From NCBI RefSeq assembly GCF_006345805.1, contig NC_043003.1:81406001-81470000 (forward strand): DNA of 64,000 nucleotides, given 5' to 3'. This DNA is from Octopus sinensis (taxonomy: Eukaryota). The translations under genes were made by a program, and so were the position numbers. Within the stretch, counting starts at the first letter, position 1. Each line of letters opens with the position of its first letter. The notes under the pieces are model-generated. The model was not told the origin of the DNA. It made no database searches and saw only the letters and a list, made by a program, of their open reading frames with translations. Shown here piece by piece: positions 1,965 through 61,760 of the stretch.

Positions 1965-2168
1965 GTGTGTGACTGCGTGTATATTGTTGGCGATTTTCTT
2001 TCTCCGTCTTCCCTTCTTTGGACTTCCTCTATATTTCTGACTAAGAGCTCCATTTAAAACGTGAAATCCTCCTTCTTTCTTTCCTTTCCTGGGCGTCCAA
2101 TAAAACTGTACTTATTCCACATCCTCACGTTGTTGTGTTTTCTCTTTGTTCATGTTTGGATTAACTAC
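1965..2168 (+). mobile_element. Penelope-like terminal repeat with degenerate hammerhead motif
   Basis: ttt-CTGAcTA-agagc-tcc-attt-aAAAC-gtg-aaa at 2034-2066 resembles a decayed version of the 12519-12560 fold; the 3' end abuts (TA)n. Confidence 0.4.
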
Positions 2169-2189
2169 ATATATATATATATATCACAG

Positions 2190-2335
2190 GGTCATCCAGT
2201 TACAGCTGAGGGAACTGGAGCAACCTAAAATGTAGTGTTTTGATCAAGAACACAACACAGTCTTGGTTTGGAAATGGAACCCATGATCTAACAATCATGA
2301 GTCCAACACTCTAACCACTAGGCCACGTGTCTTCC
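2190..2335 (-). mobile_element. SINE family B, 5' part
   Basis: Reverse strand reads acacgtggcctagtggttagagtgttggactcatg (A box) followed by gtgttcttgatcaaaacact. Confidence 0.6.
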
Positions 2336-2904
2336 CCCCACACACACACATATAAATTTGTGTGTGAGTGTGTGTGTGTATGTGTGTGTGTTTGTATATC
2401 TATGTATATATGTATATTTCATGATTGTAATAGTTGTGAAATATACATACATTGATTTATATTTGGTATGGACATTACCTGATAGAGAATGTTCATACCT
2501 TAGGTAGTGGAGTAGACAAATCAGCATTTTTTTTTATTAAAGGAAAAGTGATGGTCCACATGGGTTTCATTCAAAAGCCAGCTGAACGGGATCAGTGTTT
2601 TACTTTACTTTTCATCACGGATAGGAGGGCACTGGGATTTTCTGGGAAGGTGGCAGTTATTCATTGTATTTCAGAGTTTAAAAATGGAGTGAAGTGTGAA
2701 TCTGTGTAAAATATTTTTAATTTTTTTCTTTTTTGGCTTTGGTAAATATCTGCAAACTTGTAATACAGAGGGTGCATGTTTGCAGAGGTGAGCATAGTAA
2801 CTCACTGGTGTATGTATTCACACACATACACATACACAGATATACAAATATTTTACAGATAGGGATTTTCATAGACAGCTAGTCTACTCTTCGATGAAAC
2901 CCTT

Positions 2905-3325
2905 TATGACTGGGTGAGGACAGAACCATGAAGAACATCAAAATTCATACTAAATTCATTGATGAACTCCTTGTTGACTCTTACTTTACATATTACACCA
3001 TTATTCATAGATTGGACAGCCTGCACAAGCTGTACATCTCTACCAAATTTTCTTAGTTTTGACCAGATTTCTAAGCATGAAAATCTCTGTCAATGAATAT
3101 CAGGAAAAGTGGTTTATACTATATATCCTATTTGGAAGATTGTATCTGTAGTGCCTTTACCTGGCACAAGGCCAAACTGTATTTCAGATAGGTTGACTCA
3201 GTTACAGATCAACTCTGCTATAATTCTTTTTGTAACCTTCATAGTCTTGGTTGAACAATTTGATGGCACTATAATTTTCTCTGTCTAAGGCATTTTTTTC
3301 ACTCCTTTACGCTTGTAGCACTTTG
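2905..3325 (-). pseudogene. Decayed RTE-clade LINE RT fragment
   Basis: Frameshifted translation: LDRENYSAIKLF..MKVTKRIIAELI..EIQFGLVPGKGTTDTIF..IWSKLRKFG..VQAVQSM..KVRVN..VLHGSVL. Confidence 0.75.
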
Positions 3326-3579
3326 CATTGTTGCTACTACCCCATATATTAGAACGCATGCATGTGTGTGTGTGTGTATGTGTATATATATATATATATA
3401 TATATACACATTTATGTATGCATGTATGTATGCATCTATCTATCTATCTCTCTCTCTCTCTCTATATATATATATATATATACATCTCAATAACTATTTT
3501 CATATGTCTGTGCACACCTTGAATGCAATGTATACCAGAAGGTTTGCAAATCTAATGGAGGCCCCAAAAGACATTTTAA

Positions 3580-3945
3580 TATCCACACACACCTCTAGCA
3601 GTTTAACCTGTTTGTCGGCCCAGTGTCCAACGATGCAGATGCTGTTGGATGGCATGGCCCTACCTCTCCAGGTGCCGAGCTGCAAGCCCACTGACTTTTC
3701 CAAGTTAATTTTTGTTCCTGCTACTGCTTTGTAATCTTTTAGTGTCTCGCCGACCAAGTCAATATACCTGTGGCTCAATACTATGATGGTGACATCGTCC
3801 ACATATGCAAACACACCCCTCCTGCATCTCAGTTCCTGCAGGATGCCACACAGTGTTGCCAGCTTCTGCAGTAGTGGCTCTAGAGTCAATGCATACAAAA
3901 GCGATGAGAGGGTGCATCCTTGATAGACCGAACACGTGATGATAA
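3580..3945 (-). pseudogene. L1/Tx1-clade LINE RT fragment
   Basis: SVYQGCTLSSLLYALTLEPLL..AYVDDVT..KINLEKS, i.e. the QGCPLSP, YADD and KIN.EKS motifs (ORF 3500..3898). Confidence 0.8.
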
Positions 3946-5797
3946 ATGAGACAGACAGACAGACAGACAGATAGATAGCTGTTTTTATGTCTGTATTGAT
4001 GCTATGTTTTAATGATAGACTATATTTCCTGCTACAAAGTGTTCTTCATGATAATATCGATGATGTATATATTTTGTATCAATCATTACTTTAAGTAAAT
4101 GTTTTGTGATAAAGTGAATTCTTATAATTTTGTGCTATTGTTATTAATATACAAAATCCAGATATATTTTAAACAAACAATACAAGAATGTTTCAAAAAG
4201 AATCACAAGATTTGCACATTTTTTTTTTCTCCCCGAATAAGTGAAGGAGACTAAACTTATGCTGTACAGTGTGGAAACATGAGAATTATTACAGTTTGAA
4301 ATTAAATATCAAAATTTTTAAAAATCAATTTAAAAGAGACACTGATGTGTTTTCTCAGATACACAGCTCAAAATACACATAAAACTTTTGATAAATAGTC
4401 ATTTATATATATATATATATATATATATATAAAATTTCTCACTTGCTTCATTTTTCTTTTCTTACCTCTCTCTTGCTCATATGATTTCTATTTCAAATGC
4501 GTGCATATTTGTGGAGATATATTCAAAATTGCATTCATACTTACACATTCGGAACTTTGACCTTCTTCTGCCTTGATAAGCATTACTCGAATATTATCAC
4601 TTGAGCAATATATCTACATAAATCAAAGCTGCTAAATAATTCCCTTGTCTTTTGAGATTCTTTACATATTTTTATATTGATATTTTTAAAATTCTCACAC
4701 CAAAATATTACAAACTGGAAACATACATCCATATATACATCCAAATATTTCTATATGCACTTTTCTGTGCAAGAAAGCAAGTGTATACATACATAGCTTC
4801 ATTGAAATGTAAAAAGAGTAAAAAAAAAAAAACAGATTTGAATATCATAAATCTATATTTATGTAAACATACATACACCAAACTATGAATCATTCACTTT
4901 CCTTTTATATACATTTGTATTTCTACATTTAAAAGATATGTACTCAAAATTTAAAGTATATTAAAAGATAAATCCAAAAATAAAAATGTATAAAATTACA
5001 AACACATTTATTTTAAGCCATAATACAATTTTAAATAATTTAATTCCAGTCTTGGGAAAAATACATCTGTCAGAAATTTAAGCTCTAATAAAACACAAGT
5101 AATATTTTACACTGCCATAAATTCAGGATTACCATTTCTTAACTATCAACACAATATTTTATATCTTTTCAGCTCATAAATTCTTCAACCTATTTCTCTT
5201 GTCATTGCTTTAAAACAGTGTTATTCATCATGTTCAAAATGTGGTCAAGATTTCCCTAAACTTAACCATTCCCATGGTATTAAGCACTTTCATGCCATAC
5301 TCTGTGCTTCTGAGACTCATAATATTATTTATATTCCACCATTACAGTATAGAAAATGGTTGCCAGGAGCCCTTTCAACAATGTTTCACCTTTACTATTT
5401 AACTTCTCAGTATTGCTTGCACATAAAACACCTTTGTTAATGAATTTCAACATAGGCACAAGGGCTCAACTTTTGGTGAAGGGGTATACTCATTTAAGGT
5501 AAATCTCCATCTCCTAAACTGGGTCCATATCATATAGATACTAAAAGTTTGAACGGCTTTACCAGCACTAGTACGGTTTGAAATCAGAGAGAAAAGAGCT
5601 GTAAGCAAATATTGTAGCATATTTTACTAGACACTACCATTTCTGGCACTATGTAATTTAATGTAAAATTTATTGCTGAAGTACACAATAATAACAACCT
5701 AGTTTGTTAAAATATGTTATGATATGCTTTACTCAAACTGATTCTACAATGTATGAAGTAAGTTGTTCAGAAATTATTATATTCTATGTTGTCAAAT

Positions 5798-60239: not shown

Positions 60240-60558
60240 TATTGGTAAAAACGGTAAGATAACAAAAGAAAGAAAGAGACCTCAATATTATGTAAATAGA
60301 GGGAATTTATCTGTAAATAATATGTGGCAATTATTCAATAGCCAAGATAAAACTCGGATGCCGAGGTGGAAATCCACACCACCATCTCTTCGGTTATCTG
60401 GCCATCAATTGCACTAGGTCACAAAAGATCAAGTGAATATTGTTATGATTGATGGCCAGATAACCGAAGAGATGGTGGTGTGGATTTCCACCTTGGCATC
60501 AGAAACTCAGAGTTTTATCTTGGCTATTGAATAATTATCATATATTATTTTACAGATA
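60240..60558. mobile_element. Penelope-like family P3, inverted pair in (TA)n
   Basis: About 60306-60408 is the reverse complement of about 60448-60558; (TA)n on both sides. Confidence 0.7.
60455..60524 (+). ncRNA. Type-I hammerhead motif with U4C core
   Basis: GCCAGATAA-CCGAAGA-GATG..CATC-a-GAA-ACTC-a-GAGT-T-TTATC(t)TGGC: 9-bp stem I, stem II, stem III, GUU site. Confidence 0.6.
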
Positions 60559-60734
60559 TATATATATATATATATATATATATATATAACAGACAGAAGC
60601 CTGGTCATCTGCCAAGCTAGCCCCAGTCAAACCATACAACTCATGCCAGTATGGAAAGTAGATGTGAAATGATAACGATGATGATGATGCTGATATATAT
60701 ATATATATATAAAGCATATATAGTAAATATACAG

Positions 60735-60935
60735 GCTTCAAATTTTAGCACAATGCCAGCAAGTTTTCGGAAGGGTGATAGTCAATTACATCAACCCCAG
60801 TGTGCAACTGATACTTACTTTATTGTCCCCAAAAGGTAAGAATGGTAAAGTCTGCCTTGGTGGAATTTTAACTCAGAACATAAAGACTGATGAAATGCTG
60901 CTAAGCATTTTGCCCAGAGTGCAAACAATTCTTCT
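60735..60935 (-). mobile_element. SINE family C
   Basis: Homologous to 47325-47537. Confidence 0.7.
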
Positions 60936-61052
60936 ACTACAACTACCTTATAGCATAGTAAAGACACCCTTCAATCATAAATTACCATGGTATTGCACTT
61001 ACAAAGTTCCCCTCCGAGGACAAGTCTGGACAAGGTTGTTTATGAAAGTCCT

Positions 61053-61532
61053 GCAGTCACTCCTCAGGTCAAATTGCTAAGAAAAAGTTTTTAGTTTTAG
61101 GTTTTTTTAGGAATTTGACCTGAGGAGTGACTGCTTTTCAGAGTAAAATCATTTTTCTGCTCTAATGAACTTGGATATGGTTTTCTTATATGATTTTATA
61201 TAATCCTAATTTGGCCATGAAACGTGCGTAGTTGATGTACAAGTACTTACTTTTATACAATATATTATTGTATTAATTTTTATTGTTCAATTTATACTTT
61301 ATTTGATTTTAGATTAATATTTTTATGATGAATGTTTCTTTGTATGGTATTCGCTGTGATTTTAAAAGTATTTGCCCTTATATATTACATGATTGTAATA
61401 ATCTTACTGTTCAATATTATATATTATTAAAATTTTAGATTAGTATTTTGTATGGTATATGTCTCACAGAATAGCTTTGGATAGGCTCTTCATTGACTGA
61501 GTTGTGGAATGGTGATTCGTCTCTAAGTTAGT
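61053..61532 (+). mobile_element. Penelope-like family P4 with short inverted 5' arm
   Basis: 61053-61086 is the reverse complement of about 61102-61134; hammerhead motif present; 3' end at (TA)n. Confidence 0.55.
61115..61235 (+). ncRNA. Hammerhead motif with long stem II region
   Basis: TTGAC-CTGAGGA-gtgac..ggccat-GAA-ACGTGCGT-A-GTTGA, with 92 nt between the core halves. Confidence 0.45.
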
Positions 61533-61574
61533 TATATATATATATATGTATGTATGTATGTATACATATATGTA

Positions 61575-61760
61575 AATGACTGCTAACTCCAAAAGCATTT
61601 TTATTCTCTCTCTGTTTATTTCCTCACATTCCTTTCTGTTAAAGTGTGTAGGCTCAAAATGTAAAAGATGTTTTCATATTCCCAAGCATCAAACTAATAC
61701 ACCTGCTTGTTGTTTATACACCTGTCATCGTCTTTTGTTTTCTCTGTAAATTTCAATTAT
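61575..61760 (+). mobile_element. Penelope-like family P1 copy, decayed
   Basis: cttt-CTGTTaA-agtgt-gtag-gctc-aAAAt-GTA-aaag at 61632-61667. Confidence 0.55.

What the first reader, a model, noticed from the sequence alone, without database searches (positions are those of the whole stretch)
2034..61667. A panel of short repeat families, each with a different hammerhead-ribozyme core
Seen: at least five sequence-unrelated non-coding families in 64 kb share the order stem I, 7-nt core, stem II, GAAA, tiny and mostly palindromic stem III, NUH, stem I. The cores differ by family: CUGAUGA (6938), CUGUWGA (10013, 12519, 61632), UUGANAA (21082, 21469, 23673), CCGAAGA (60464) and CUGAGGA (61120). 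Established: Penelope-like elements carry minimal type-I hammerheads whose palindromic stem III allows dimeric cleavage (Cervera and de la Pena 2014). Inference: this is a diversified radiation of Penelope-derived ribozyme repeats whose non-canonical cores would be missed by canonical pattern searches. No linked Penelope ORF is visible here.
Basis: partly seen in the sequence, partly recalled or inferred. Interest (0 to 1): 0.75.

Follow-up and report, generated by a model that had tools for sequence, protein, structure and literature searches.

The report
Penelope hammerheads with altered cores
The short repeats are cut-off tails of several Penelope-type jumping genes, each ending in that group's known small hammerhead-shaped RNA; one lineage of about 15,000 copies keeps an unusual core letter (U at position 6) while still conserving the motif, so it likely matters to the element, but whether it cuts RNA is untested.

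Summary
The motif is real. Four cited sites pass a hammerhead descriptor (0.04 per shuffled window); most others are decayed copies. All five cited families are 5'-truncated 3' ends of Penelope-like elements (PLEs). Longer genomic copies carry PLE ORF pieces upstream: Neptune-like for B and C, Hydra-like for A, D and E. Copies end in (TA)n and show inverted pieces. Minimal hammerheads, many families per genome and the U3-A8 core are published for PLEs.

'A different core per family' is overstated. A, E and the 2034 family are canonical. CCGAAGA (U4C) marks only 15 of 100 D copies.

The distinctive part is family B. It has 14,902 exact copies, and U6 replaces A6 (0 of 100 have A6). Variation sits at N7 and H17, the positions a hammerhead leaves free. 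Other motif positions differ 4% against 14% in the flank.

Cleavage is untested. Copies span the cut site, no 5' ends pile there, and a sister subfamily spread with a predicted-inactive G17. The scan noted A6U and a five-family panel before on other DNA. Verdict: new variant of a known kind, modest interest.

The parts
2033..2067 (+). Family F hammerhead, decayed copy. Family core is canonical CUGACGA; the window's subfamily has G17. Element about 1963-2184. Sister of family B.
6938..6985 (-). Family A hammerhead, intact: canonical core CUGAUGA, 7-bp stem II, A.A at its base, 8-nt helix III palindrome. Element about 6812-7135, with an inverted 3' piece at 6725-6789. Hydra-like PLE.
10012..10047 (-). 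Family B hammerhead, decayed older copy (CUGUUGA; stem II and palindrome broken)
12521..12556 (-). Family B hammerhead, intact: core CUGUAGA (A6U), extra A, 4-bp stem II, GAAA, ACGU palindrome, 4-bp stem I. Element about 12416-12600 between (TA)n tracts. Neptune-like PLE.
21054..21091 (-). Family C hammerhead-like copy, U3-A8 core, GAAA changed to AAAA; inverted partner of the 21466 copy
21466..21503 (+). Family C copy, U3-A8 core UUGACAA, 5-bp stem II with C.C at its base, AGCGCU palindrome, only 2-bp stem I
23645..23682 (-). Family C copy, UUGAAAA core, palindrome damaged. Element about 23507-23804. Neptune-like PLE.
51673..51825 (+).
60240..60398 (-). Inverted family D copy with a deletion across GAAA/helix III and a roughly 65-nt 3' tail absent from the + copy (PLE inversion and tail signature)
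60459..60519 (+). Family D hammerhead, intact: core CCGAAGA (U4C, minority subfamily), interrupted long stem II, 3'-side bulge, near-palindromic helix III, 5-bp stem I. Hydra-like PLE.
61053..61086 (-). Short inverted piece of family E holding stem I and the core
61115..61235 (+). Family E hammerhead: canonical core CUGAGGA, roughly 80-nt loop II, 8-nt palindrome in the family (damaged here). Hydra-like PLE.
61632..61667 (+). Family B hammerhead, decayed older copy (CUGUUAA, AAAA for GAAA)

Best explanation
These repeats are 5'-truncated 3' ends of at least five Penelope-like retrotransposon families, inserted at (TA)n tracts, and each carries its family's minimal type I hammerhead motif, which likely works as a slow, dimer- and protein-assisted RNA cutter. 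Shown: the motif, the upstream PLE ORF pieces, the (TA)n ends, the inversions and tail, the family-level cores, and that genomic copies run through the predicted cut site. Inferred: reverse transcription starts downstream of the motif on uncut RNA and usually stops early, which leaves 150-400-bp tails. The palindromic helix III likely lets two motifs pair as a dimer and trim tandem or read-through transcripts. Because the template must survive uncut, weak cutting is likely tolerated, so lineages drifted to A6U (B), U4C (subfamilies of D, A, F), U3-A8 (C) and G17 (a subfamily of F) while keeping the fold.
For: ORF link. B: 25 of 25 loci found with an ORF end plus UTR query were examined; 22 show the recognisable B motif downstream by my pattern or by eye, and 3 (L151-L175 set: L155 truncated, L170 not reached, L169 shortened) are partial. 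L159 passes Pfam RVT_1 (33.4 bits, cut-off 29.6); the ORF has DKG, a CX2-5CxxC linker and two cysteines inside GIY-YIG. C: L073 and L087 share the ORF end, with RT motifs upstream. D: L191, L193, L200 and L412. E: L130 and L145, with DKT. A: L212, L217, L225, L227, L231, L232. CxCX5C linker, no CCHH, a late CxxC and DKT match the Hydra definition in PMC8557442. (TA)4 or more near the 3' end: A 28, B 23, C 26, D 17, F 28 of 30 each, against 7.4% of background windows. B constraint: 14,902 exact copies with core and H17 left free, control 0. In the first 100 listed (hand count) position 6 was U 97, C 1, A 0, with 2 out of register; N7 was A22/C15/G15/U46; H17 was A62/U37/C1/G0. In 17 copies found by flank only, non-free motif positions differ 24/578 (4.2%), N7+H17 16/34, flank 184/1341 (13.7%). 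D covariation: 16 double-change cells against 7.2 shuffled, 0/500. Helix III self-duplex energies run from -1.7 (B, F) to -13.3 kcal/mol.
Against: No cleavage data. No pile-up of 5' ends at the cut site in any family (weak, since most loci were chosen for spanning the motif). F spread with G17 in 16 of 26 matched top copies, so spread does not need a canonically cleavable site. C keeps no real stem I: pairing probability 0.0, the base after the cut varies, and C.C sits at 10.1/11.1. E's short basal stem II is not favoured in the monomer fold (p about 0.01). B's helix III is only 4 bp even as a dimer. In one search only 1 of the 4 other measures was clearly above shuffles (pairs with double change 179/500, pair types 349/500), relatedness inflates the score, and the pattern fixed several stem columns. 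GIY-YIG pieces of A, D and E score below the Pfam cut-off or not at all. No copy with an upstream pLTR motif in direct orientation was found in 11 upstream stretches. A published PLE hammerhead is dispensable for insertion in vitro (PMC11167929).
Confidence: 0.72

Rival explanations
1. The motifs are kept as a folded binding or positioning site for the PLE RT/endonuclease protein, or for dimerising two RNAs. The variant cores (A6U, U4C, G17, family C) no longer cut.
For: All copies derive from uncut RNA. G17 spread in F. C lacks stem I. A6 changes are known to lower activity (A6C under 0.1 per min, PMC3088659 section 8). Hammerhead mutants still insert in vitro, and no RNA-seq ends were seen at the cut site in Anolis (PMC11167929).
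Against: In B, variation falls on exactly the catalytically free positions: all four bases at N7, and A/U/C but never G at H17 in 100 copies. A protein site would not be expected to mimic this. C shows minor C3 (about 4%) and G8 (about 9%) letters in one run, as a core-pair swap would give (co-occurrence in one molecule not shown).
Confidence: 0.3
2. The variant cores are neutral damage in master elements that happened to amplify, with no selection on the motif after the change.
For: Each family descends from few masters, so copy number is not independent evidence. U4C is confined to subfamilies (15 of 100 D copies).
Against: U6 persists across B subfamilies whose majority flanks differ by up to 22%, while the motif differs at 1-2 of 36 positions, always N7 or H17 (motif-selected). 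The flank-selected test agrees (15 of 17 copies). U4C recurs in three unrelated families.
Confidence: 0.1
3. The short units are independent non-autonomous retrozyme- or SINE-like elements that replicate on their own through ribozyme-cut circles.
For: About half of 30 motif-selected B copies start within a narrow zone about 70 nt upstream of the core (by eye). A few loci hold several nearby copies. Animal retrozymes derive from pLTRs (bioRxiv 10.64898/2026.07.22.740005, abstract and parts 1-2).
Against: Copies show graded 5' truncation up to ORF-bearing length. They are dispersed monomers or inverted pairs, not head-to-tail arrays. Their ends do not fall at the cut site. The preferred start resembles the (TA)n target, so microhomology may explain it.
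Confidence: 0.08

Closest known systems
Minimal type I hammerheads (min-HHR) in pseudo-LTRs of metazoan PLEs (Cervera and De la Pena 2014, PMC4209133; read: main text parts 1-2 of 4, supplement file 2 part 2 of 3 and search passages; file 1 not searchable)
   Same: Type I order, extra base between 9 and 10.1, palindromic or absent helix III, many unrelated consensus families per genome, mostly single truncated copies, opposite-strand pairs, U3-A8 variant.
   Different: The part of its alignment that I read, and a search of that file, show no U6 or C4 core. No cephalopod is listed (0 hits for 'octopus'). Families A and C have a mismatch at 10.1/11.1, D has a 3'-side bulge, and E has a roughly 80-nt loop II.
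Neptune and Hydra clades of C-terminal EN+ PLEs (Craig et al. 2021, PMC8557442; read: passages and section 3)
   Same: B and C: DKG (B), CX2-5CxxC linker, cysteine pair inside GIY-YIG. A, D and E: CxCX5C linker, no CCHH, late CxxC, DKT (E), (TA)n targets, inverted 5' pieces, one-sided tail, hammerhead near the 3' end.
   Different: Clade calls rest on motifs in broken ORF pieces, not on a tree; Nematis is not excluded for B and C. The paper speaks of canonical hammerheads in these clades.
Natural core variants A6C, U4C and U3-A8 (Perreault et al. 2011, PMC3088659; read: passages and section 8)
   Same: Same positions altered; U4C and A6C are reported as weak but active.
   Different: Those are rare single examples from a phage and a viroid. 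Here the position-6 change is to U and is fixed in about 15,000 genomic copies.
Anolis Poseidon PAc hammerhead (Frangieh et al. 2024, PMC11167929; read: passages)
   Same: pLTR hammerhead, internal RT start giving a tail, uncut RNA as template.
   Different: Canonical core, and tested: it cuts only with the element's protein. Nothing here is tested.
Lunse, Weinberg and Breaker, PLE-associated small hammerhead variants (title seen in a reference list only; paper not held)
   Same: By title: small variants tied to PLEs that cleave as dimers.
   Different: I could not check whether it already reports A6U or U4C; this bears directly on novelty.

Membership tests
Penelope-like element (EN+, C-terminal GIY-YIG) | RT followed by GIY-YIG endonuclease upstream of the repeat | tested here: met
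   B: RVT_1 above cut-off plus GIY-YIG motifs; C and D: RT and EN motifs in broken pieces. A and E: only EN-side or N-terminal pieces seen, identified by motif, below the Pfam cut-off. F: no ORF seen in 30 loci.
Penelope-like element (EN+, C-terminal GIY-YIG) | 5'-truncated copies with inverted partial copies and a one-sided tail | tested here: met
   Window D, E, A and C pairs; tail on one D arm only
Penelope-like element (EN+, C-terminal GIY-YIG) | Partial tandem with an upstream pLTR before the ORF | tested here: inconclusive
   No direct upstream motif of the same family in 11 upstream stretches; most copies are truncated
Hydra clade (A, D, E) | CxCX5C linker, no CCHH, late CxxC, DKT, (TA)n target | tested here: met
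   Motifs read against the definition; DKT seen in E only; no tree built
Neptune clade (B, C) | CX2-5CxxC linker, CCHH, and RT grouping with Neptune | tested here: inconclusive
   Motifs met; no reference tree, so Nematis is not excluded
Minimal type I hammerhead ribozyme | Core CUGANGA (or U3-A8) plus GAAA and NUH | tested here: inconclusive
   Met for A, E, most D and C (U3-A8). Not met for B (U6), the U4C subfamilies and the G17 subfamily of F.
Minimal type I hammerhead ribozyme | Stems I and II flanking the core, G10.1-C11.1 | tested here: inconclusive
   Met for B, D and F. A has A.A at the stem II base. C has C.C and no kept stem I (not met). E's basal stem II is not favoured in the monomer fold.
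Minimal type I hammerhead ribozyme | Palindromic helix III allowing a dimer | tested here: met
   All six families; D has a central mismatch
Minimal type I hammerhead ribozyme | Site-specific self-cleavage after H17 | not testable with these tools
   No raw RNA reads were offered; no genomic end pile-up
Non-LTR retrozyme | Head-to-tail tandem arrays of hammerhead-bearing non-coding units | tested here: not met
   No such array in the window; copies are dispersed or inverted and grade into ORF-bearing elements

The most novel reading that the evidence does not exclude
CUGUNGA (A6U) is an active natural hammerhead core. A very successful PLE lineage replaced the 'invariant' A6 and stayed under hammerhead-specific selection, with dimerisation or the element's own protein rescuing catalysis. 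With repeated U4C and G17 gains, this would show PLEs tuning their ribozymes down so that template RNA survives, and that canonical searches miss tens of thousands of working ribozymes per genome.
Probability: 0.35. Interest if true: 0.62.

Novelty: new variant of a known kind. Interest (0 to 1): 0.36.

Why it matters
The panel as a whole is what the literature predicts for a PLE-rich animal genome. The useful addition is a natural set of matched sister ribozymes: B (U6) against F (A6), and U4C-D against canonical D. These make an open question directly testable, namely whether PLE hammerheads are selected to cut, to cut weakly, or only to fold. If U6 is active, the hammerhead core consensus and the search descriptors need widening.

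Tried and rejected
Rfam: no hammerhead match at two tested sites or in the rows shown for the window. Expression: no RNA holder listed; contigs laid cannot show ends or strand, so they are not used on expression or cleavage. One search did not list the common U7 letter seen, so I lean on it only lightly (no other letter was listed at position 6 in four runs). 5'-end pile-up at the cut site: none (the B count there was swamped by microsatellite hits, and only starts upstream of the tail were read). My first clade guesses (Naiad, then Nematis, from recall) for A, D and E were dropped after reading the Hydra definition. The Hydra-like ORF downstream of the D copy in L113 was not counted as a link. 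A B/F cross-family alignment was out of register and was discarded. In some searches, 6 of 23 rows were dropped before the count: 5 truncated in or lacking the motif, 1 the window's own copy; with them in, the rates were 11.7% against 15.4%. Pfam family PF26215 could not be searched in the genome. The Lunse et al. paper was not held. Searches for print: hammerhead + A6U gave one twister paper (listing only); CUGUNGA gave 0; U4C + retrotransposon gave only PMC3088659; octopus + Penelope + hammerhead gave no study of these motifs by listing. PMC13282606 has 0 hits for 'ribozyme'. Subscription papers and bioRxiv supplements were not visible.
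Full report
Setting. The window is G000:C7:81406001-81470000 in a 2.72-Gb animal genome. It is 33% GC and rich in (TA)n and (CA)n tracts. The repeat landscape looks octopus-like to me (recalled, not tested). I label the families A (6938), B (10013, 12519, 61632), C (21082, 21469, 23673), D (60464), E (61120) and F (2034).

Observation. The motif order is there. A relaxed descriptor finds 4 intact motifs in the window against 0.04 per shuffle (25 shuffles); it was written after I saw the sites. 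In an independent 800-kb sample it finds 9, against 0 and 1 in two shuffles. The other cited copies are decayed, and 61632 reads CUGUUAA. Family profiles find A 2, B 7, C 2, D 4, E 0 and F 5 hits in the 800-kb sample, so the window is richer than average.

Family majorities. The 30 best genomic copies per family (majorities) give cores A CUGAUGA, B CUGUAGA, C UUGA(A/C)AA, D CCGAAGA, E CUGAGGA and F CUGACGA, each with a palindromic helix III. Best-hit sets favour the query's subfamily, so I freed the core in genome-wide patterns for B and D. For B there are 14,902 exact matches (control 0). In the first 100 listed, counted by hand, position 6 is U in 97, C in 1, A in 0, with 2 out of register. 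N7 takes all four bases (22/15/15/46) and H17 is A, U or C, never G. For D there are 2,118 matches. Only 15 of the first 100 have C4, 14 of them with the same loop and helix III letters, and 84 have U4. So U4C is a subfamily trait. U4C also marks subfamilies of A and F. F is a canonical-core sister of B, with stem I read as A-U, G-C or C-G at its outer pair; 16 of 26 matched top F copies have G17.

What they are. Longer copies extend upstream by graded amounts into PLE ORFs. B: a query of ORF end plus UTR returned 25 loci, nearly all followed by the U6 motif, and many with RT upstream. L159 passes Pfam RVT_1. C: L073 and L087 share the ORF end, with RT motifs further up (RVT_1 below cut-off). 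D: L191, L193, L200 and L412; the L191 piece has 5 longer homologs among 316 candidates. E: L130 and L145. A: six of 30 loci. By the motif definitions in PMC8557442, B and C look Neptune-like and A, D and E Hydra-like; no tree was built. No ORF was seen for F in 30 loci. Copies end in (TA)n in 17-28 of 30 per family tested (A, B, C, D, F), against 7.4% background. Inverted partial copies and a one-sided tail are visible in the window, as described for PLEs.

Is the motif constrained? Majorities of B subfamilies differ by 2-22 of about 100 downstream bases, but by 1-2 of 36 motif bases, always at N7 or H17 (these copies were selected on the motif). To remove that bias I searched 1.57 Mb with a flank-only profile (26 hits). 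Of 23 aligned rows I dropped 5 truncated or motif-less ones and the window's own copy. In the 17 left, non-free motif positions differ 4.2% (24/578), the two free positions 47% (16/34) and the flank 13.7% (184/1341); 15 of 17 copies agree in direction. Copies share ancestry, so these are not independent events. In D, 29 copies give 16 double-change cells against 7.2 shuffled (0/500), but pair-level measures were not above shuffles. C is the weakest: no kept stem I and C.C at the base of stem II, though minor C3 and G8 letters appear among its copies.

How it likely works. Established (PMC4209133, PMC11167929, PMC6765202 passages): PLE pLTRs carry minimal hammerheads that cut slowly as dimers. 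One tested example cuts only with the element's protein, is not needed for insertion in vitro, and uncut RNA is the template. Shown here: copies run through the cut site, and 5' ends do not pile there (weak). Inferred: these tails are early-stopped reverse transcripts. The motif likely trims tandem or read-through RNA at a low rate, and because the template must survive, lineages tolerate weakening changes. The main rival is a non-cutting protein-binding or dimerising fold. The G17 subfamily of F and family C favour it; the N7/H17 pattern in B argues against it for B.

Comparison and novelty. Many families per genome, the extra base, palindromic helix III and U3-A8 are all in PMC4209133. U4C and A6C are known as rare weak variants outside PLEs (PMC3088659). 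I found no printed A6U or PLE U4C core, but could not read Lunse et al., the most likely place for them. Earlier notes of this scan report A6U in another genome and a five-family panel in this one; I tested the A6U claim here. Verdict: real, Penelope-derived, mostly known; the fixed and constrained U6 core is a new variant worth one cleavage assay. Interest 0.36.

Noticed in passing
window 41849-41955 +: U6 snRNA-like copy (Rfam 76.8 bits, E 1e-17) with several changes; probably a pseudogene, directly followed by a common SINE-like repeat
   Followed up: no
window 3500-4045 -: Fragment of a non-LTR reverse transcriptase (Pfam RVT_1, E 2.9e-9)
   Followed up: partly
window 56756-57085 -: Mariner-type transposase fragment (HTH_48, E 6.5e-12)
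   Followed up: partly
window 53376-53664 and 55577-55865: 289-nt inverted repeat, 99% complementary, 1.9 kb apart; arms are copies of the abundant SINE-like repeat that has more than 20 copies in the window
   Followed up: no
window 18209-19193 and 32913-33736: Near-identical tandem duplications of 475 and 400 bp bounded by microsatellites; possible assembly artefacts or recent slippage
   Followed up: no
L346-L375 (family B): About half of motif-selected B copies begin in a narrow zone about 70 nt upstream of the core, next to (TA)n; microhomology-driven 5' joining or a discrete short unit
   Followed up: partly
L359, L361 versus L406: Two B copies join what looks like the element's far 5' UTR start directly to the hammerhead; possible internally deleted non-autonomous subfamily
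   Followed up: no
L328, L341, L308 (random sample): Further hammerhead families not in the window, two with U3-A8 cores and one canonical
   Followed up: no
rows at C1:25197754, 65599804, 65599901: Three of 100 D copies (two insertions) also read CUGUAGA; possible independent A6U gain in a Hydra-like family
   Followed up: no
window 61130-61220 + (family E loop II): The roughly 80-nt loop II holds an 8-bp inverted repeat and a GT...AG stretch that could be a small intron, as in D. virilis Penelope
   Followed up: no
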